Position numbers and translations under genes: made by a program
Shown: piece by piece, positions 1-7,708 of the stretch
Layout of the letters: each line of letters starts with the position of its first letter
How positions within the stretch are numbered: position 1 is the stretch's first letter
Notes under the pieces: model-generated
Told to the model about the DNA's origin: nothing
Database searches by the model: none
Seen by the model: only the letters and a program-made list of their open reading frames with translations
Virus record (IMG/VR): IMGVR_UViG_2663763413_000006
Direction: 5' to 3' (one strand)
Source: a virus
Lineage: Duplodnaviria; Heunggongvirae; Uroviricota; Caudoviricetes
Length of the DNA stretch: 7,708 bases

Positions 1-296
1 GGGCCGGTAAAACCGGACTGATACAGCCACTTATCCGCAGCGTGCTGGACTCCGGGGGCTTTGCCGTGGTGTTCGACATGGGGGATGGCTACAAGTCCCT
101 GTGTGAGAACATGGGGGGCGTATATCTGGACGGTGAAACCCTGCGTTTTAACCCGTTTGCGAACATCACCGATATCGACCAGTCAGCGGAGCGTGTCCGT
201 GACCAGTTGTCAGTGATGGCCAGCCCCAACGGTAACCTGGATGAAGTGCATGAAGGTCTGCTGCTGCAGGCGGTCAGGGCCTCCTGGCTGGCCTGA
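1..296 (+). pseudogene. traC: Internal fragment of F-type conjugative transfer ATPase TraC (VirB4-family T4SS ATPase); 5' end outside window, stop TGA at 294-296
   Basis: Frame starting at nt 3 is open from the window edge and reads AGKTGLIQPLIRSVLDSGGFAVVFDMGDGYKSLCENMGGVYLDGETLRFNPFANITDIDQSAERVRDQLSVMASPNGNLDEVHEGLLLQAVRASWLA. The leading AGKT is the tail of a Walker A P-loop. The string matches my recollection of F-plasmid TraC, which continues past ...RASWLA; here a TGA follows immediately. Recognition is from memory, not a search. Confidence 0.7.
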
Positions 297-647
297 TCCT
301 TAACTGATCGGCATTACAGCCAGATGCTGGGCTTTATTGCCGAAAACTATGATCAGGCGCTGACCATCAACGATGTGGCTGAGCACGTCAAACTTAACGC
401 CAACTATGCAATGGGGATATTCCAGCGGGTCATGCAATTGACGATGAAACAGTACATTACCGCGATGCGCATCAACCACGTTCGCGCGTTACTGAGCGAT
501 ACCGATAAAAGTATTCTCGATATTGCCCTGACGGCAGGCTTTCGTTCGAGTAGCCGTTTTTACAGCACGTTCGGCAAATATGTCGGCATGTCGCCGCAAC
601 AATACCGCAAACTTAGCCAACAGCGCCGCCAGACGTTTCCCGGCTAA
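297..647 (+). pseudogene. melR: 3' portion of an AraC/XylS-family regulator (MelR-like C-terminal HTH DNA-binding domain); 5' part of the gene absent
   Basis: Same frame as the traC fragment. Translation SLTDRHYSQMLGFIAENYDQALTINDVAEHVKLNANYAMGIFQRVMQLTMKQYITAMRINHVRALLSDTDKSILDIALTAGFRSSSRFYSTFGKYVGMSPQQYRKLSQQRRQTFPG is a typical AraC-family tandem-HTH C-terminus. Position directly upstream of adiA matches the E. coli melR-adiA-adiY-adiC arrangement. Only about 115 codons are present, so the gene is 5'-truncated. Confidence 0.6.
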
Positions 648-842: not shown

Positions 843-3183
843 ATGATGAAAGTATTAATTGTTGAAAGCGAGTTTCTCCATCAAGACACCTGGGTCGGTA
901 ACGCCGTTGAGCGTCTGGCAGATGCTTTAAGCCAGCAAAATGTTACCGTGATTAAATCCACCTCCTTTGATGATGGTTTTGCCATTCTCTCTTCAAACGA
1001 AGCCATTGACTGCCTGATGTTCAGCTATCAAATGGAACATCCGGACGAACATCAAAACGTCAGACAATTGATCGGTAAGCTTCATGAGCGCCAACAAAAC
1101 GTGCCGGTCTTCCTGTTGGGCGATCGGGAAAAAGCCCTCGCCGCAATGGACCGGGATCTGCTGGAGCTTGTCGATGAATTCGCCTGGATTCTGGAAGATA
1201 CCGCCGACTTTATCGCCGGACGCGCCGTTGCCGCGATGACCCGCTACCGCCAGCAGCTATTGCCGCCACTGTTCAGCGCGCTGATGAAATATAGCGACAT
1301 CCATGAATATTCCTGGGCAGCGCCAGGCCACCAGGGCGGCGTTGGTTTTACCAAAACACCCGCCGGACGTTTCTACCATGACTATTATGGTGAAAATCTG
1401 TTCCGCACCGACATGGGTATCGAACGCACTTCCCTCGGTTCTTTGCTTGACCATACTGGCGCATTTGGCGAAAGCGAAAGATATGCCGCACGCGTATTTG
1501 GTGCCGATCGCTCCTGGTCGGTAGTCGTCGGTACTTCCGGCTCTAACCGCACCATCATGCAGGCTTGCATGACCGATAACGAGATAGTAGGTCGGTGACC
1601 GTAACTGCCAGAAATCCATCGAAAAAGCCATAAAGCCAACAAACAAGAAACCAGGCTAACAGGCGCGAAACCGGTCTACATGGTGCCAAGCCGCAACCGC
1701 TACGGCATTATCGGGCCAATCTATCCGCAGGAAATGCAACCTGAAACCTTGCAGAAGAAAATCAATGAAAGCCCGCTGACCAAAGACAAAGCCGGGCAAA
1801 AACCGTCTTACTGCGTGGTGACCAACTGCACCTATGACGGCGTGTGTTATAACGCTAAAGAAGCACAGGATCTGCTGGAAAAAACCTCCGATCGTCTGCA
1901 CTCTGACGAAGCACTGGTACGGCTATGAACGTTCCAACCCGATCCATGCCGATCACGAGCCATGCGACAGCTCTATGCCGATCAACCCGATCTATGCCGA
2001 TCACTATGCCATGCGCGGCGAACCTGGCGATCACAACGGTCCTACCGTTTTCGCCACCCACTCCACCCACAAACTGCTGAATGCGCTGTCACAGGCCTCT
2101 TATATTCATGTACGTGAAGGTCGTGGGGCGATTAACTTCTCCCGCTTCAACCAGGCCTACATGATGCATGCCACCACCTCCCCGCTGTATGCCATCTGCG
2201 CATCCAACGACGTGGCGGTGTCGATGATGGACGGCAACAGCGGCCTGTCACTGACCCAGGAAGTGATCGACGAAGCGGTTGATTTCCGTCAGGCGATGGC
2301 GCGGCTATATAAAGAGTTCACCGCTGACGGTAGCTGGTTCTTCAAACCGTGGAACAAAGAAGTCGTCACCGACCCACAAACCGGCAAAACCTATGACTTT
2401 GCTGACGCACCAACCAAACTGCTGACCACCGTTCAGGACTGCTGGGTCATGCATCCGGGCGAAAGCTGGCACGGCTTCAAAGATATTCCGGATAACTGGA
2501 GTATGCTCGACCCGATTAAAGTCAGCATCCTTGCTCCGGGAATGGGTGAAGATGGTGAACTGGAAGAAACCGGTGTTCCGGCGGCGCTGGTCACAGCCTG
2601 GCTTGGTCGCCACGGCATTGTGCCTACCCGTACCACTGACTTCCAGATTATGTTCCTGTTCTCTATGGGCGTGACCCGTGGGAAATGGGGGACTCTGGTT
2701 AACACCCTTTGCTCCTTCAAACGCCACTATGATGCCAACACACCGCTGGCGCAGGTGATGCCGGAACTTGTTGAACAATATCCTGACACTTACGCGAACA
2801 TGGGGATTCACGATCTGGGTGACACCATGTTTGCCTGGCTGAAAGAAAACAACCCTGGCGCACGGTTGAATGAAGCCTATTCCGGCCTACCGGTGGCGGA
2901 AATCACCCCGCGTGAAGCGTACAACGCGATTGTCGACAACAATGTCGAACTGGTATCCATTGAAAATCTGCCAGGACGTATCGCGGCAAACTCAGTTATC
3001 CCGTATCCGCCAGGAATCCCGATGCTGCTGTCTGGTGAAAACTTCGGCGATAAAAACAGTCCGCAAGTAAGTTATTTACGCTCGCTGCAATCCTGGGACC
3101 ATCATTTCCCTGGATTTGAACACGAAACAGAAGGGACAGAAATTATTGACGGTATTTACCACGTTATGTGTGTGAAAGCGTAA
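843..3183 (+). pseudogene. adiA: Biodegradative (acid-inducible) arginine decarboxylase AdiA, reading frame broken into three ORFs (843-1598, 1680-1928, 1834-3183)
   Basis: N-terminus MMKVLIVESEFLHQDTWVGNAVERLADALSQQNVTVIKSTSF... and C-terminus ...GTEIIDGIYHVMCVKA match E. coli AdiA as I recall it. In-frame stops TGA 1596-1598 and TAA 1602-1604 lie in a scrambled segment 1581-1658, after which frame 0 resumes (TGAKPVYMVPSRNRYG). A +1 shift near 1911-1916 moves the native reading to frame 1 (WYGY...). A 48-bp in-frame insertion at about 1936-1983 is a diverged partial copy of the following sequence. Confidence 0.85.
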
Positions 3184-3199
3184 CCACTATTCCGCTGAA

Positions 3200-3226
3200 G
3201 GCGTAATTGTTAAATAACATTACGCC
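3200..3226. other. 27-nt near-perfect palindrome (hairpin-capable) immediately downstream of the adiA stop
   Basis: ggcgtaat tgttaaataac attacgcc: 8-bp perfect outer stem (3200-3207 with 3219-3226), a further 4 bp after one mismatch. No T-run follows, so it is not a canonical intrinsic terminator. Confidence 0.4.
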
Positions 3227-3300
3227 GCCTGGCTTGAGGCCTTTTAAGTATGGCAACGTTTTCATAAAAATTGCTGCAAACAAAAAATGTCATGCTTTTT

Positions 3301-3328
3301 GCGCGGTCCCACCCCGCGCTTTTTTTTG
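3301..3328 (+). terminator. Rho-independent terminator between adiA and adiY
   Basis: GC-rich stem gcgcgg (3301-3306) pairing with ccgcgc (3314-3319), 7-nt loop tcccacc, followed directly by a run of 8 T (3320-3327). Confidence 0.6.
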
Positions 3329-3518
3329 CCTGTTATTTATCCTTTTTTTAGCCTGTAAAAAAATATGTACATGAGAAATTACTATAAAAATTTGTAATAT
3401 TAGTAAAACTCGTTATTTTTATGCATGTTTATATTCATCATACAATTATATAACCATTTCCCGGTATCGCTTCGCTTTAGCGAGAACTGGTCTTTTATTC
3501 GCACTCAGGAGTACATGT

Positions 3519-4443
3519 ATGAGGATTTGCAGCGACCAACCTTGTATTGTTTTATTGACTGAAAAAGATGTCTGGATAAGGGTGAATGGGAAAGAACCTA
3601 TTAGCCTTAAAGCTAACCACATGGCGTTATTAAATTGTGAAAATAATATTATCGACGTCTCCTCTCTTAATAACACTTTGGTTGCTCATATTAGTCACGA
3701 CATCATCAAAGATTACCTCCGGTTTCTGAATAAAGATCTCTCGCAAATACCAGTATGGCAACGTAGCGCTACGCCCATCCTCACCCTTCCATGCCTGACG
3801 CCAGACGTCTTTCGCGTTGCCGCGCAGCATAGCATGATGCCCGCTGAAACTGAGTCAGAAAAGGAACGAACACGTGCATTATTATTCACTGTGCTATCCC
3901 GTTTTCTCGACAGTAAAAAATTCCTTTCACTAATGATGTATATGTTTCACTAATGATGTATATGTTACGTAATTGTGTAAGTGACAGCGTTTATCAAATT
4001 GTGTAAGTGACAGCGTTTATCAAATTATTGAAAGCGAAATCCACAAAGACTGGAATCTTAGTATGCCAGCAAGAGACTGGAATCTTAGTATGGTAGCCAG
4101 TTTGGAATCTTAGTATGGTAGCCAGTTGATGATGTCTCAGCCCAAGTCTGTTAAAGAAAAAGCTGAAAAGCGAAAACACCAGTTATAGCCAAATAATCAC
4201 CACCTGCCGCATGCGTTATGCCGTAAATGAATTAATGATGGACGGTAAAAATATTTAATAATGGACGGTAAAAATATCTCTCAGGTACGCTAAAAATATC
4301 TCACAGGTATCACAGTCCTGCGGCTACAACAGTACGTCGTACTTTATTTCTGTCCTTAAAGACTTATACGGTATGACGCCGCTGCATAAGGTATGACGCC
4401 GCTGCATTATGTTAGTCAGCACAGAGAACGCACTGTCGCCTGA
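3519..4443 (+). pseudogene. adiY: AraC-family activator AdiY, disrupted by multiple short tandem duplications and in-frame stops
   Basis: ORF 3519-3953 reads MRICSDQPCIVLLTEKDVWIRVNGKEPISLKANHMALLNCENNIIDVSSLNN..., matching recalled E. coli AdiY, then terminates early at TAA 3951-3953 inside a duplicated segment. Downstream sequence still encodes AdiY-like peptides in shifting frames (e.g. [56 protein letters not shown]) up to the native-looking stop TGA 4441-4443. Good RBS aggag 8 nt upstream of the ATG. Confidence 0.8.
3925..4409 (+). repeat. Cluster of short direct tandem duplications inside adiY
   Basis: Read directly: tttcactaatgatgtatatg x2 (3925-3944, 3945-3964); attgtgtaagtgacagcgtttatcaa x2 (3972-3997, 3998-4023); gactggaatcttagtatg(gtagccagtt) in three overlapping copies (4048-4065, 4075-4102, 4103-4127); atggacggtaaaaatat x2 (4238-4254, 4261-4277) with a third partial copy near 4291-4310; ggtatgacgccgctgcat x2 (4370-4387, 4390-4407). 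Confidence 0.85.
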
Positions 4444-4579: not shown

Positions 4580-5163
<584 letters not shown>

Positions 5164-5164
5164 T

Positions 5165-5242
<78 letters not shown>

Positions 5243-5251
5243 TTGCAGATA

Positions 5252-5641
5252 TTACTCTTTTTTCTCCGTATCTGCATCGGGTTCATCAGCAAATAGCTTG
5301 CCCTGCATCCGATCCAGTTCTTCTTTTCTTACCCGCTTAACCACGCTGTAGACCCACTGAAGCGAAACACCAAATTTGCGGGCCAGTTCGTGGTGGTTGC
5401 GTCCGTTAAACTCCCTGAAGATTTCCCGGTCGCGCTGACTGACCTTCCATACCATGCCCATCGGGAAATAAACGTTTTGCCCGCCCCAGACCTGCATCAT
5501 TCGGTTCGCGACGGCCTGACCAATCTGGTCGGCAACTTCGGGCTCAATATCAATAATCTCGCGAACGGTCTCAGAGGTATGCTGTGCCAGTTCCACCAGG
5601 AGTTCCGGCCCCTTACTTCGAAACTGATTCAGGTCGCTCAT
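5252..5641 (-). CDS. mor: Mor-like middle-operon transcriptional activator (Mu gp17 family)
   Basis: 129 aa. C-terminal region ...GGQNVYFPMGMVWKVSQRDREIFREFNGRNHHELARKFGVSLQWVYSVVKRVRK resembles the conserved Mor/C-family HTH region of phage Mu Mor as I recall it (...FNGRN..EL...YG......VY...RR.R). Start overlaps the upstream gemA-like gene by 29 nt. Confidence 0.7.
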   Translation of the reverse strand: MSDLNQFRSKGPELLVELAQHTSETVREIIDIEPEVADQIGQAVANRMMQVWGGQNVYFPMGMVWKVSQRDREIFREFNGRNHHELARKFGVSLQWVYSVVKRVRKEELDRMQGKLFADEPDADTEKKE

Positions 5642-6062
5642 GTTTGACTCCCGCAGCTCTGCGCTGCCACTTCTTCAGTTTCTCAATAACACTGCTTGCC
5701 TGTTCAGTACTGAGCCAGCGCAGGGCGCTGATGCCCGTTTCCCGCTTGATCCACCTCGCTAATGCATTTTCTGAACGGTCACGAACAATGCCGGCAGCAG
5801 CCATTTCAAGCCATAGCGCACGAATTTTCCTGGACTGCGGATGGTTATCAAGCGGTAAACCGGAGCTGGCTTTTCTGGCTGGTTTAACGCGAAAGCCTTT
5901 CTTTTTCATGGATTCCAGCACGCAGTTTAGTTGTGTGGTATCCATTCCTTTGGTTGAGGCTTTACCGGTCAGCCCCTGTAACATCTGGCGGTAGGTGTCT
6001 TCATCCATACCCAGTTCATTACGGGCAATATGGATAAGCTGTATCAGGCGTTTTTTCTGCAT
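5613..6062 (-). CDS. gemA: GemA-like protein (Mu gp16 / DUF1018 family)
   Basis: 149 aa, MQKKRLIQLIHIARNELGMDEDTYRQMLQGLTGKASTKGMDTTQLNCVLESMKKKGFR...KIRALWLEMAAAG... matches the GemA family pattern recalled from Mu-like prophage annotations. Lies immediately upstream of mor as in phage Mu. RBS ggag upstream of ATG at 6062. Confidence 0.65.
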   Translation of the reverse strand: MQKKRLIQLIHIARNELGMDEDTYRQMLQGLTGKASTKGMDTTQLNCVLESMKKKGFRVKPARKASSGLPLDNHPQSRKIRALWLEMAAAGIVRDRSENALARWIKRETGISALRWLSTEQASSVIEKLKKWQRRAAGVKHERPESVSK

Positions 6063-6063
6063 A

Positions 6064-6270
6064 TCATCTCCTTTTTTTCAGTCTGTCGGCAACAATGTCG
6101 GTTGCAGCTGGCAGGGTGACTGGCCAGAACAACATGACGGCGGTCATGTACAGGATGTAATGCGCGGTGTCGTAGTGCCTGCCATAGCCCAGGGAACGAT
6201 GAAGTCTTGCGCTGCATGATCCTGCGTACATATACCAGAAAAGAAAACAGACAATGGTTTCAGTAGTCAT
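6064..6270 (-). CDS. Small hydrophobic (putative membrane) protein, 68 aa, unknown function
   Basis: Internal start of the 6064-6426 ORF: ATG at 6270-6268 preceded by ggagg about 10 nt upstream. MTTETIVCFLFWYMYAGSCSARLHRSLGYGRHYDTAHYILYMTAVMLFWPVTLPAATDIVADRLKKRR has two hydrophobic segments. Start overlaps the stop of the upstream gene; the stop is 1 nt from the gemA start. Confidence 0.4.
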   Translation of the reverse strand: MTTETIVCFLFWYMYAGSCSARLHRSLGYGRHYDTAHYILYMTAVMLFWPVTLPAATDIVADRLKKRR

Positions 6271-6490
6271 TCTGAATACCTCCCCATTCGATATGAATAT
6301 TACGGGCAGCAATGACAGGGTCGTTATTCCACCATGCACCTGACATGTATTTTTCAACCTGTTCGCGTCCGGCAATAACACCAATTGTGATCCCCGGCCT
6401 GACGTTCTTAAAAAAGGCGCGGGCAAAAAGGTATCTGGCAGATATTCGGCAGGCTTTTAATTTCCGGCTTTTACCTGATAGCGTAATCAT
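6260..6490 (-). CDS. Hypothetical phage protein, 76 aa
   Basis: ORF with ATG overlapping the TGA of the upstream DUF2786-like gene (ATGA at 6487-6490, minus strand), consistent with translational coupling in a phage operon. No family recognised. Confidence 0.4.
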   Translation of the reverse strand: MITLSGKSRKLKACRISARYLFARAFFKNVRPGITIGVIAGREQVEKYMSGAWWNNDPVIAARNIHIEWGGIQNDY

Positions 6491-7170
6491 CTGGCCTCCA
6501 GTTTCTGTTGTTCCTGCCCACTGACCGGGCGGTGCAGTCTGACGTTCTGCCCTTCACGAAACCCCGCATAGCGCGAGGCGTCGCCATTGCGGCTTCTTCC
6601 CGGTTTACGCGCCCTGGTGGTTTGCGTCTGCGGGTATTTATGTTCCAGCCACTGCTGCATCAGTTCACGCTCATCATCGGTCAGGGCAAAGGACTGTATT
6701 TCACTGATAACGGCCAGCACCCAGCCTTCGGCAAACTGGTCTCCACGGCTGGTGCGGGTGGCGGTTTTTATTCTTTTGTTCTGTGCACTGATATACTGCT
6801 GACGCGCCTTTTTCAGCTGACGGGCCAGCACTTCCCAGGTGTATGCAGCCAGTGCCGCACGTTCCCGGTTGCCGTAGAACCCCACAGACGGATGCGTGCC
6901 GGGGTGAATGATGGAGTTAACACCAAATACCTCGCGGATGATGTTCATCAGGCCCAGCATGTAGCGCGGTGGACGGAGACTGCCTGTCGGCCAGTAGTGA
7001 CTGATGGTTTCATCAATATCACTCATAGCAATGTCGGAATGTGTGATGCCGTGAACATCCATCAGTTTACGGGCTCGGCGCAGTGCCAGAGCGGCCTCGT
7101 GCGGGTTGCCGGATGCGGCCAGCGCCAGCAACTTTTTCAGTTTCTCAATGTGTTTATTCTGGTCTGTCAT
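6487..7170 (-). CDS. DUF2786-like phage protein (227 aa from ATG 7170; the six-frame ORF extends to 7206)
   Basis: N-terminus MTDQNKHIEKLKKLLALAASGNPHEAALALRRARKLMDVHG resembles the DUF2786 signature (EKI.KLLALA.S.N..EA..A...A..LM) common in prophage early regions. The ATG at 7170 overlaps the TGA of the upstream gene (ATGA) and has ggag about 11 nt upstream, so I prefer it over the 7206 start. Confidence 0.55.
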   Translation of the reverse strand: MTDQNKHIEKLKKLLALAASGNPHEAALALRRARKLMDVHGITHSDIAMSDIDETISHYWPTGSLRPPRYMLGLMNIIREVFGVNSIIHPGTHPSVGFYGNRERAALAAYTWEVLARQLKKARQQYISAQNKRIKTATRTSRGDQFAEGWVLAVISEIQSFALTDDERELMQQWLEHKYPQTQTTRARKPGRSRNGDASRYAGFREGQNVRLHRPVSGQEQQKLEAR

Positions 7171-7382
7171 TGTTCTGTATCTCCGGTATTTTTCTGCCGT
7201 TTCCATGCCCGGACAGCGTCGGACAGCTCTTTCAGGCTGTATGCTGCTTTAAGCTTTTCCCATAACCACTGTGTTGTTATGTGCATCAGCAGGGCAGCCA
7301 GGGCTGCCCCCGCACTGAGGCATGTCGCCAGGCCAGTAAGAATCAGTGTCCATGCGGTGATTTCCCTGAGTATGTCAGCCAT
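7167..7382 (-). CDS. Small putative membrane protein, 71 aa, unknown function
   Basis: MADILREITAWTLILTGLATCLSAGAALAALLMHITTQWLWEKLKAAYSLKELSDAVRAWKRQKNTGDTEQ has one clear hydrophobic helix. RBS gggagg 8 nt upstream of the ATG; stop overlaps the start of the downstream gene. Confidence 0.4.
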   Translation of the reverse strand: MADILREITAWTLILTGLATCLSAGAALAALLMHITTQWLWEKLKAAYSLKELSDAVRAWKRQKNTGDTEQ

Positions 7383-7396
7383 TGAATGCCTCCCGG

Positions 7397-7693
7397 TTAC
7401 TCGTTCGTGTAAATCACGCCCAGTCGTGCAGCCAGACGTTCCAGTTTTTTCTGTTTGTGGAAGTCAATCAGCCGGTCCATCCCCTGAAGGCGCAGTTGCT
7501 CTGTCATGATTTCCACGTCTGCCAGCTCTGCCGCGAGGTCACTTTCGCTGCCCTGTCCGTTCAGGTTGCGGGCGGCACTGGCCGCCAGTTCAGCGGCCTC
7601 TTCTGCCAGTTTCAGGGCCTGTGCGTCCGGCCCGAAACGCTGCAGGGCCAGACGGTAGAGGGCGGTGCGGGTGAGTTCGGTGTTTCGTGTCAT
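7397..7693 (-). CDS. Small MazG-like all-alpha nucleotide pyrophosphohydrolase-type protein, 98 aa (motif-based call)
   Basis: Contains E31-x3-E35 (LAEEAAELAAS), then 20 residues later E56-x2-D59 (AAELADVEIM), matching the MazG/HisE-type metal-binding signature E-x3-E ... E-x2-D. RBS gaggg upstream of ATG at 7693. Inferred from motif only. Confidence 0.5.
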   Translation of the reverse strand: MTRNTELTRTALYRLALQRFGPDAQALKLAEEAAELAASAARNLNGQGSESDLAAELADVEIMTEQLRLQGMDRLIDFHKQKKLERLAARLGVIYTNE

Positions 7694-7708
7694 GCCGCGC
7701 CCTCAGTG

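What the first reader, a model, noticed from the sequence alone, without database searches (positions are those of the whole stretch)
7397..7693. Phage-borne MazG-like mini pyrophosphohydrolase
A 98-aa protein with the E-x3-E ... E-x2-D all-alpha NTP-pyrophosphatase signature sits at the head of the visible early operon. Phage MazG-like enzymes have been proposed to reshape host nucleotide or alarmone pools; in light of nucleotide-based antiphage signalling such an enzyme could act as a counter-defence, but this is speculative.
Basis: inference. Interest (0 to 1): 0.4.

Follow-up and report, generated by a model that had tools for sequence, protein, structure and literature searches.

The report
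MazG-like pyrophosphatase in Mu-like prophage
A 98-residue gene in the early operon of a transposable (BcepMu-like) E. coli prophage encodes a small MazG-type nucleotide pyrophosphatase; this is a common, optional phage accessory enzyme, and its substrate and role here have not been tested.

Summary
The ORF is real: 7397-7693, minus strand, 98 aa. It has a Shine-Dalgarno site, is under purifying selection (dN/dS 0.07-0.24), and its region is present in about 640 of 5,426 complete E. coli genomes and in phage PhiKM.

It carries the canonical MazG metal motif, E31-E32-x2-E35 ... x20 ... E56-x2-D59, and these residues are conserved across 73 diverse relatives.

Pfam and NCBIfam miss it. Four other lines place it in the all-alpha NTP-pyrophosphatase superfamily:
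- PHROG 2245 ("NTP pyrophosphohydrolase"), E 5.5e-34.
- Profile-profile match to the Bacillus MazG family, E 4.9e-6.
- MazG Pfam hits (E<0.01) for 18 of 73 relatives.

The gene is not at the head of the operon. It sits mid-way through the early region (transposase, B, Gam ... GemA, Mor) of a BcepMu-like transposable prophage that is inserted in adiC here. It is optional: 60 of 71 related phages carry it.

Substrate and role are unknown. I favour (d)NTP-pool conditioning. A counter-defence role has a precedent (Atd1), but Atd1 is only a superfamily-level relative.

Verdict: an ordinary new member of a known kind, of low interest.

The parts
7397..7693 (-). 98-aa ORF encoding the small MazG-like (all-alpha NTP pyrophosphohydrolase superfamily) protein
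7589..7603 (-). Codons for E31-E32-A-A-E35, the first metal-binding motif (EExxE) in helix 1
   Evidence: Sequence. Conservation in A1 and A2. Aligned with the EEmGE motif of BcMazG.
7517..7528 (-). Codons for E56-L-A-D59, the second metal-binding motif (ExxD) in helix 2. It is followed by the conserved V60-E61-I-M and E65-Q66.
   Evidence: Sequence. D59 is invariant and E56 at least 90% conserved in 73 relatives. Aligned with the EElGD motif of BcMazG.
7694..7705 (-). Translation start region: the TGA stop of the upstream gene (7703-7705) overlaps a GAGGG Shine-Dalgarno (7700-7704), 6 nt before the ATG
   Evidence: Read directly from the sequence. The upstream 90-aa gene ends 9 nt before this ORF in the full prophage.
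7167..7382 (-). Next gene in the operon: a 71-aa hydrophobic protein (phrog_3958, unknown function), starting 14 nt after the MazG-like stop. It is variably present in related phages.
6487..7170 (-). DUF2786/DUF7168 protein gene in the same operon. The RefSeq start gives 227 aa; the ORF listing gives a longer 239-aa ORF starting at 7206.
   Evidence: Pfam DUF7168 1.1e-25 and DUF2786 4.8e-11. RefSeq annotation.
5613..6062 (-). GemA (Mu gp16 family) gene, a marker of the Mu-like early region
   Evidence: Pfam GemA 8.3e-41.
5252..5641 (-). Mor-family transcription activator, the last gene of the early operon and about 166 bp from the prophage end
   Evidence: Pfam Mor 1.3e-43. Same layout as BcepMu gp01/gp02 at that phage's left end.
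5085..5090 (.). Approximate junction between the interrupted host gene adiC and the end of the transposable prophage
   Evidence: adiC similarity runs to 5090. Prophage similarity starts at 5085-5087 and abuts different host genes in other E. coli genomes.

Best explanation
The ORF encodes a small, divalent-cation-dependent nucleoside-triphosphate pyrophosphohydrolase of the all-alpha MazG/HisE superfamily.

Structure. Each 98-aa chain is predicted to be a long two-helix hairpin (helices about 9-44 and 50-90). By analogy with solved small MazG proteins, two or four chains would pack into the dimeric four-helix-bundle core (inferred, not tested).

Mechanism. E32 and E35 on helix 1 and E56 and D59 on helix 2, helped by E31, E61 and E65, would hold Mg2+/Mn2+. 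The metal would activate water to cut the alpha-beta phosphoanhydride bond of a (d)NTP, giving (d)NMP plus pyrophosphate. Conserved K80, K83 and R86 probably contact the phosphates. This mechanism is inferred from the family.

Expression. The gene is co-transcribed from the early promoter with the transposase, the B protein, Gam, GemA and Mor of a BcepMu-like transposable phage. It would therefore act during the first minutes of lytic growth.

Role. The most likely role is conditioning or sanitising the host (d)NTP pool for replicative transposition, as an optional accessory function. The substrate is not known.

Confidence. The stated confidence is for the whole statement. It is about 0.85 for the enzyme class and about 0.4 for the specific role.
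For: Shown here:
- It is a real, conserved gene.
- The MazG metal motif is present and conserved.
- PHROG 2245 'nucleoside triphosphate pyrophosphohydrolase' matches at E 5.5e-34.
- 18 of 73 family members hit Pfam MazG PF03819 at E<0.01, best 2.2e-5.
- The family profile finds MazG structures 5IE9, 2Q73, 2Q5Z, 2GTA and 1VMG, all weakly, E 0.009-0.33.
- hhalign against an independent alignment of PF03819-positive Bacillus MazG proteins gives Prob 86%, E 4.9e-6, with both motifs in register.
- The AF2 model has pLDDT 96.4.
- Early-operon position: the gene sits between Gam and GemA/Mor on the same strand in 49 of 80 viral loci, including relatives of only 42-50% identity.
- No internal promoter or terminator is detected.
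- Nucleotide-pool theme: in related phages a PF04447 dATP/dGTP pyrophosphohydrolase (E 5e-44) lies directly downstream of this gene (L021, L125, L126) or occupies its slot (L148).

From the literature:
- The cyanophage MazG prefers dGTP and dCTP and does not hydrolyse (p)ppGpp (PMC6850273).
- The superfamily is described as house-cleaning NTP pyrophosphatases that form dimers or tetramers (PMC10014863).
Against: - The protein itself fails the curated thresholds. Its best Pfam hit is PRA-PH at 15.5 bits against a cut-off of 21.3, and its best NCBIfam hit is 14.6 against 42.7.
- Foldseek matches are not significant (E >= 0.18, TM <= 0.5).
- No activity, metal binding or oligomeric state was tested, or could be.
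- Substrate and physiological role are inference only.
- The gene is absent from Mu and BcepMu and from 11 of 71 close relatives, so it is dispensable.
Confidence: 0.7

Rival explanations
1. Same enzyme fold, but the physiological substrate is a signalling nucleotide: (p)ppGpp, or an immune second messenger or its precursor. The protein would then be a counter-defence or anti-abortive-infection factor, like Atd1 of Pectobacterium phage PcCB7V.
For: - Atd1 is a phage MazG-like mini enzyme. It hydrolyses ppGpp (apparent Km about 50 uM), protects against TIR-STING toxicity and improves T5 plating about 10-fold on retron-TIR (bioRxiv 10.1101/2022.06.09.495361).
- The gene lies in a mosaic accessory slot of the early region, expressed before replication.
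- The same slot holds a Lar-type restriction-alleviation domain (PF14354, 1.4e-8) in a related phage, L151.
- Gam, a host-nuclease inhibitor, lies just upstream.
Against: - The relation to the two MazG/HisE-like proteins of PcCB7V is at superfamily level only: hhalign P 0.12 and 0.0018, no BLASTP similarity.
- I could not establish which of those two proteins is Atd1.
- A different phage MazG does not touch (p)ppGpp (PMC6850273).
- There is no PADLOC hit and no defence-related neighbour in this prophage.
Confidence: 0.17
2. A catalytically inert helical-hairpin protein that keeps a MazG-like shape but acts by binding a host or phage protein, or DNA. Other tiny early proteins of Mu-like phages work this way, for example Aqs1.
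For: - Curated HMMs do not reach threshold.
- Some relatives are fused to an XRE-type HTH domain (L053; Pfam HTH_3 2.3e-18).
Confidence: 0.07
3. A HisE-type phosphoribosyl-ATP pyrophosphatase acting in histidine biosynthesis.
Against: Both scores are below the curated cut-offs. There are no histidine-pathway neighbours, and the context is a phage early operon. More relatives hit MazG (18) than PRA-PH (3). HisE and MazG share the fold, so the structural hits do not discriminate between them.
Confidence: 0.02

Closest known systems
Sulfolobus solfataricus MazG-type NTP pyrophosphohydrolase SSO3215 (PDB 1VMG)
   Different: An archaeal chromosomal protein. Sequence similarity is only marginal (profile E 0.33). 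Substrate information for it was not retrieved here.
Bacillus-conserved MazG (BcMazG, PDB 5IE9; Pfam PF03819)
   Same: Closest solved relative by sequence profile (E 0.009). The family-family hhalign gives E 4.9e-6 with EExxE and ExxD in register.
   Different: BcMazG is 103-123 aa with a longer, basic inter-motif loop (25 residues against 20). It passes Pfam MazG, and it is a chromosomal housekeeping gene rather than phage cargo.
Integron cassette iMazG (Vibrio DAT722, PDB 2Q5Z/2Q73)
   Different: Different mobile context (integron cassette), and the relation is weak. Its reported preference for dCTP and dATP is from my own memory of Robinson et al. 2007 and was not checked here.
Atd1, MazG-like anti-TIR defence protein of Pectobacterium phage PcCB7V
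   Same: A phage-encoded mini MazG/HisE-like protein (candidates of 86 aa and 120 aa) with the twin acidic motifs. It is the only phage MazG-like protein I found with a demonstrated counter-defence effect.
   Different: Related only at superfamily level (hhalign P 0.12 and 0.0018). It comes from a 146-kb lytic Vequintavirinae phage and lies next to an NTase gene, not in a Mu-like early operon.
Cyanophage S-PM2 MazG
   Same: A phage-borne MazG, long presumed to remodel host nucleotide or alarmone pools.
   Different: It was shown to prefer dGTP and dCTP and not to hydrolyse (p)ppGpp (PMC6850273). It is a marine myovirus auxiliary metabolic gene of bacterial origin. No direct sequence comparison was made here.
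PF04447 dATP/dGTP pyrophosphohydrolase (former DUF550, MazZ-type)
   Same: Another small pyrophosphatase, of the same all-alpha superfamily as I recall it (clan not checked here). It is found immediately downstream of this gene, or in its slot, in related BcepMu-like phages.
   Different: A distinct family: it hits PF04447 at 5e-44, while the window protein does not. It is absent from this window.
PHROG 2245 (phage orthologous group annotated 'nucleoside triphosphate pyrophosphohydrolase')
   Same: The window protein is a clear member: E 5.5e-34, residues 1-97 matched.
   Different: The PHROG annotation is itself a remote-homology inference. No member known to me has been characterised biochemically.

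Membership tests
All-alpha NTP pyrophosphohydrolase superfamily (MazG / HisE / dimeric dUTPase) | All-helical fold whose two long helices form the core of a dimeric four-helix bundle | tested here: met
All-alpha NTP pyrophosphohydrolase superfamily (MazG / HisE / dimeric dUTPase) | Metal-binding signature E-x2-E ... (12-28 residues) ... E-x2-D | tested here: met
   E32-x2-E35, then 20 residues, then E56-x2-D59. E31 and D59 are invariant, and E32, E35 and E56 are at least 90% conserved in 73 relatives. In register with BcMazG motifs.
All-alpha NTP pyrophosphohydrolase superfamily (MazG / HisE / dimeric dUTPase) | Homodimer or tetramer assembly that builds the active site | not testable with these tools
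   Only monomer prediction was available. The oligomer is inferred from solved relatives (PMC10014863).
All-alpha NTP pyrophosphohydrolase superfamily (MazG / HisE / dimeric dUTPase) | Mg2+/Mn2+-dependent hydrolysis of (d)NTP to (d)NMP plus PPi | not testable with these tools
   Needs a biochemical assay.
Pfam MazG domain PF03819 | Score at or above the curated gathering threshold of the Pfam HMM | tested here: not met
   The window protein has no PF03819 hit even at E<=1. 18 of 73 relatives hit at E<0.01, best 2.2e-5. The relation is recovered only by profile-profile comparison.
HisE / PRA-PH (PF01503, TIGR03188) | Score at or above the curated threshold, plus a histidine-biosynthesis context | tested here: not met
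   15.5 bits against a 21.3 cut-off, and 14.6 against 42.7. The neighbours are phage early genes.
PHROG 2245 (phage NTP pyrophosphohydrolase group) | Significant full-length match to the PHROG profile | tested here: met
   E 5.5e-34, 118.9 bits, residues 1-97.
Atd1-type anti-TIR (p)ppGpp hydrolases | Close sequence relationship to Atd1 of phage PcCB7V | tested here: not met
   Against the two MazG/HisE-like ORFs of MW367417: BLASTP finds nothing, and hhalign gives P 0.12 (QQG33500) and 0.0018 (QQG33552). Which ORF is Atd1 could not be established from the preprint.
Atd1-type anti-TIR (p)ppGpp hydrolases | ppGpp hydrolysis and protection from TIR effectors | not testable with these tools
   Requires enzyme and plating assays.
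Known anti-phage defence system components (PADLOC) | Match to a PADLOC model | tested here: not met
   No hit at E<=0.1 for this protein or three neighbours.

The most novel reading that the evidence does not exclude
This widespread mini-MazG clade sits at a fixed position in the early operon of many Mu-like transposable phages. It could be a dedicated counter-defence enzyme that destroys an alarmone, an immune signalling nucleotide or its NTP precursor within minutes of induction. It would then form part of an unrecognised anti-defence 'slot' that also hosts Lar-like and dATP/dGTP-pyrophosphatase cargo.
Probability: 0.15. Interest if true: 0.6.

Novelty: new member of a known kind. Interest (0 to 1): 0.22.

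Why it matters
The practical value is annotation. A protein labelled 'hypothetical' in hundreds of E. coli genomes, in a prophage region found in about 12% of complete assemblies (many of them clinical isolates), can be relabelled as a MazG-superfamily NTP pyrophosphatase.

The analysis also defines a large family, more than 2,000 50%-identity clusters at E<1e-10, that curated HMM libraries mostly miss.

Biologically it adds one more case to the open question of what phage MazG enzymes really hydrolyse. The prophage yields a phage (PhiKM) and grows in E. coli, so this would be a convenient system for testing house-cleaning against alarmone or immune-signal hydrolysis. By itself, though, nothing here is surprising to a phage biologist.

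Tried and rejected
Searches that gave nothing or too little:
- Direct Pfam and NCBIfam scans of the protein gave only sub-threshold HisE-like hits.
- phmmer against PDB sequences gave only spurious coiled-coil and designed-protein hits.
- The profile of close homologues (A1) against PDB gave 5IE9 at only E 0.59.
- The first AF2 model, built on the shallow 24-sequence alignment, was mediocre (pLDDT 78).
- Foldseek against PDB with either model gave no significant hit, although MazG-superfamily entries were enriched at the top.
- PADLOC gave nothing.
- tblastn against 50,697 phage genomes found only 6 records even at E<=10.

Comparisons that did not support a closer relationship:
- No homologue in Mu or BcepMu by HMM search of six-frame ORFs.
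- Comparison with the Atd1 candidates showed no specific relationship.
- Pfam scans of longer relatives found no informative fused enzymatic domains.
- Literature searches found no paper on MazG-like genes in Mu-like phages.

Ideas rejected:
- 'PF04447 replaces this gene as a functional analogue.' The two genes also occur in tandem in the same phage.
- 'The window is chimeric at the adiC/prophage junction.' A transposable-phage insertion explains it.
- The antisense ORFs 6508-7509(+) and 7506-7658(+) as genes. They have no family hits and lie opposite conserved genes.

Full report
**1. The observation**

The ORF listing finds one ORF at 7397..7693 on the minus strand, with an ATG start and 98 aa.
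- On the coding strand the ATG is preceded by ...CAC-TGA-GGGCGCGGC-ATG. The stop codon of an upstream gene overlaps a GAGGG Shine-Dalgarno 6 nt before the start.
- The next gene starts 14 nt after the stop codon, behind a GGGAGG site.
- The protein reads ...L29-A-E31-E32-A-A-E35-L... and ...A55-E56-L-A-D59-V-E61-I-M-T-E65-Q66....

The one reservation is 'head of the visible early operon'. That holds only because the window ends 15 nt upstream.

**2. Is it a real gene?**

- The 2.6-kb stretch 5100-7708 is matched in 641 of 5,426 complete E. coli genomes. In 576 of them at least 80% of it is covered, and 453 matching records are at least 99% identical.
- RefSeq annotates the same 98-aa ORF as 'hypothetical protein' WP_001295929.1.
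- The protein is 100% identical in Escherichia phage PhiKM (PQ738613, genus Bcepmuvirus).
- Codon alignments with homologues from viral contigs give dN/dS of 0.07-0.24 for pairs whose synonymous sites are not saturated.
- The antisense ORFs on the plus strand (6508-7509 and 7506-7658) have no family matches and lie opposite conserved genes. I treat them as chance ORFs.

**3. Genomic setting**

The downstream genes on the same strand are:
- a 71-aa hydrophobic protein (phrog_3958);
- a DUF2786/DUF7168 protein;
- two small ORFs;
- GemA (Pfam 8.3e-41);
- Mor (1.3e-43).

In the complete prophage the order is: HTH/Ner-like regulators, DUF3102, DDE transposase, ExeA-type B protein, small ORF, Gam, two small ORFs, this gene, the 71-aa gene, DUF2786, two small ORFs, GemA, Mor, phage end. 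BcepMu has the same layout, with Mor (gp01) and GemA (gp02) at its left end.

The gene is therefore in the middle of the early operon, in the stretch that corresponds by position to Mu's accessory early genes between B and GemA. It is not at the head. No promoter-like or terminator-like site lies near it.

The phage end maps to about window 5085-5090. In other E. coli genomes the same end abuts unrelated host genes, including ycaL, an arylamine N-acetyltransferase gene, a LysR-family gene and a TonB-receptor gene. This is expected for a transposable phage. In this window the prophage interrupts adiC.

**4. What the protein is**

Curated libraries miss it:
- The best Pfam hit is PRA-PH (HisE) at 15.5 bits, below the 21.3 cut-off.
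- The best NCBIfam hit is hisE at 14.6 against 42.7.
- phmmer against PDB sequences gives only noise.

Six independent lines nevertheless converge on the all-alpha NTP pyrophosphohydrolase superfamily:
- (a) PHROG 2245, annotated 'nucleoside triphosphate pyrophosphohydrolase', matches residues 1-97 at E 5.5e-34.
- (b) An exhaustive profile search finds a very large family: 10,527 cluster representatives at E<=1e-3 and 2,046 at E<=1e-10, mostly 90-110 aa. Of 73 diverse members, 18 hit Pfam MazG PF03819 at E<0.01, and 3 each hit MazG-like and PRA-PH.
- (c) The 73-sequence profile picks out five small MazG structures from PDB sequences: 5IE9 (E 0.009), 2Q73, 2Q5Z, 2GTA and 1VMG.
- (d) I built an independent alignment of PF03819-positive Bacillus MazG proteins, the relatives of 5IE9. 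hhalign between the two families gives probability 86% and E 4.9e-6. EExxEL aligns with EEmGEL, and EEIADV aligns with EElGDV. A single bona fide phage MazG (PcCB7V QQG33552; PF03819 35 bits) also aligns in register, at P 0.0018.
- (f) Conservation falls on the expected metal ligands. E31 and D59 are invariant, and E32, E35 and E56 are at least 90% conserved, across 31-100% identity.

Taken together, I am about 85% confident that this is a MazG-superfamily NTP pyrophosphatase. It belongs to a sub-family divergent enough to fall below the Pfam thresholds.

**5. Distribution and variability**

- At least 331 IMG/VR contigs encode relatives.
- In 49 of the 80 best loci the gene lies upstream of GemA and Mor on the same strand. 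This includes relatives of only 42-50% identity whose GemA is 35-40% identical. The position is therefore old and stable in Mu-like phages.
- Relatives at or below 41% identity sit in other phage types, in early or replication-like gene blocks. Some are fused to an N-terminal XRE HTH domain or carry other extensions.
- Among 71 enterobacterial BcepMu-like loci chosen through GemA rather than through this gene, 60 carry it and 11 do not.
- Mu and BcepMu themselves lack it.
- The slot is mosaic. Related phages have a PF04447 dATP/dGTP pyrophosphohydrolase (E 5e-44) directly after this gene (L021, L125, L126) or in its place (L148). One has a Lar-type restriction-alleviation domain (L151).

**6. 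How it most likely works**

Shown here: the fold class, the conserved acidic cluster and the early-operon position.

Inferred from the family (Moroz et al. 2005 as cited in PMC10014863):
- assembly into a dimer or tetramer;
- two or three divalent cations held by E32, E35, E56 and D59;
- cleavage of the alpha-beta bond of a (d)NTP to give (d)NMP plus PPi.

Role. I favour conditioning or sanitising the dNTP pool during replicative transposition, for two reasons:
- The one phage MazG tested in the papers I read preferred dGTP and dCTP and did not touch (p)ppGpp (PMC6850273).
- A dATP/dGTP pyrophosphatase is this gene's frequent neighbour.

The main rival is a counter-defence role.
- In its favour: the preprint on Atd1 shows that a MazG-like mini enzyme from phage PcCB7V hydrolyses ppGpp and blunts TIR-STING and retron-TIR toxicity. 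The accessory slot can also carry anti-restriction cargo.
- Against it: the window protein is related to the PcCB7V candidates only at superfamily level, and nothing in this prophage links it to a defence system.

I give the counter-defence reading about 0.15-0.2. A non-catalytic binder gets about 0.07, and HisE function about 0.02.

**7. Comparison with what is known, and novelty**

[quoted passage not shown] It fails the formal Pfam PF03819 and PF01503 thresholds, so I do not file it under either Pfam family. It is not a close relative of Atd1.

Small MazG-like genes are among the most commonly annotated phage auxiliary genes. One IMG homologue is already labelled 'NTP pyrophosphatase (non-canonical NTP hydrolase)'.

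This is a new, uncharacterised member of a known kind. The fixed position in Mu-like early operons and the mosaic neighbourhood are mildly interesting but not surprising. Interest 0.22.

Noticed in passing
window 5085-5090 (junction); adiC fragment 4580-5095 (+): The BcepMu-like prophage ends here, and adiC is cut at about codon 168, so the prophage is inserted inside adiC. The same phage end abuts ycaL and several other unrelated host genes in other E. coli genomes, as expected for random transposition.
   Followed up: partly
window 1589-4389 and 5069-5074: Compared with reference E. coli, the melR'-adiA-adiY-adiC stretch carries ten insertions: two of 1 bp, seven of 20-52 bp (at 1637, 1934, 3925, 3971, 4066, 4248 and 4370) and one of 6 bp. 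They break adiA into several frames. The prophage part has none. This looks like an assembly or sequence artefact, or unusual small duplications.
   Followed up: partly
window 1-316: An ORF at 42-296 that I recognised by eye as a conjugative-transfer traC fragment (not scanned against any family library); positions 1-316 are not covered by the chromosomal alignment. It directly abuts the 3' part of melR at 317, which is an unexplained join: plasmid integration, rearrangement or mis-assembly.
   Followed up: no
L021 4263-4754; L125 and L126 from 4616; L148 4382-4873: Related BcepMu-like phages carry a PF04447 dATP/dGTP pyrophosphohydrolase (E 5e-44). It lies immediately downstream of the MazG-like gene, giving two pyrophosphatase genes in tandem, or in L148 it occupies the slot on its own.
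   Followed up: partly
L151 4189-5121: In one related phage that lacks the MazG-like gene, the same slot holds a protein with a Lar restriction-alleviation domain (PF14354, 1.4e-8). This hints that the Gam-GemA interval is an accessory or anti-defence cargo site.
   Followed up: partly
L053 3782-4246; L029, P0012 and P0031 (169 aa); L033, L036 and L047: Some family members are fused to other modules: an N-terminal XRE-type HTH (Pfam HTH_3 2.3e-18), or one of two different C-terminal extensions of about 70 aa with no known domain.
   Followed up: partly
window 7167-7382 (-): A 71-aa hydrophobic protein (phrog_3958, unknown function) lies directly downstream. It is present only in the closest relatives and absent from many otherwise syntenic phages.
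   Followed up: no
window 6487-7206 (-): The DUF2786/DUF7168 gene has two possible starts: ATG at 7206 (239 aa, overlapping the 71-aa gene by 40 nt) or the RefSeq start at 7170 (227 aa). Its function is unknown although it is very widespread (phrog_421, 2e-77).
   Followed up: no
L085 2104-2364 (-) and L085 32483-32845 (-) (phage PcCB7V, MW367417): The phage that is the source of Atd1 encodes two MazG/HisE-like proteins. One is an 86-aa 'phosphoribosyl-ATP pyrophosphatase' two genes from an NTase. The other is a 120-aa 'hydrolase' that passes Pfam MazG. The preprint text does not say which one is Atd1.
   Followed up: partly
window 6508-7509 (+): A 333-aa TTG-initiated ORF runs antisense to the DUF2786, 71-aa and MazG-like genes. 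It has no family hit and is probably a chance ORF in GC-rich antisense sequence.
   Followed up: partly
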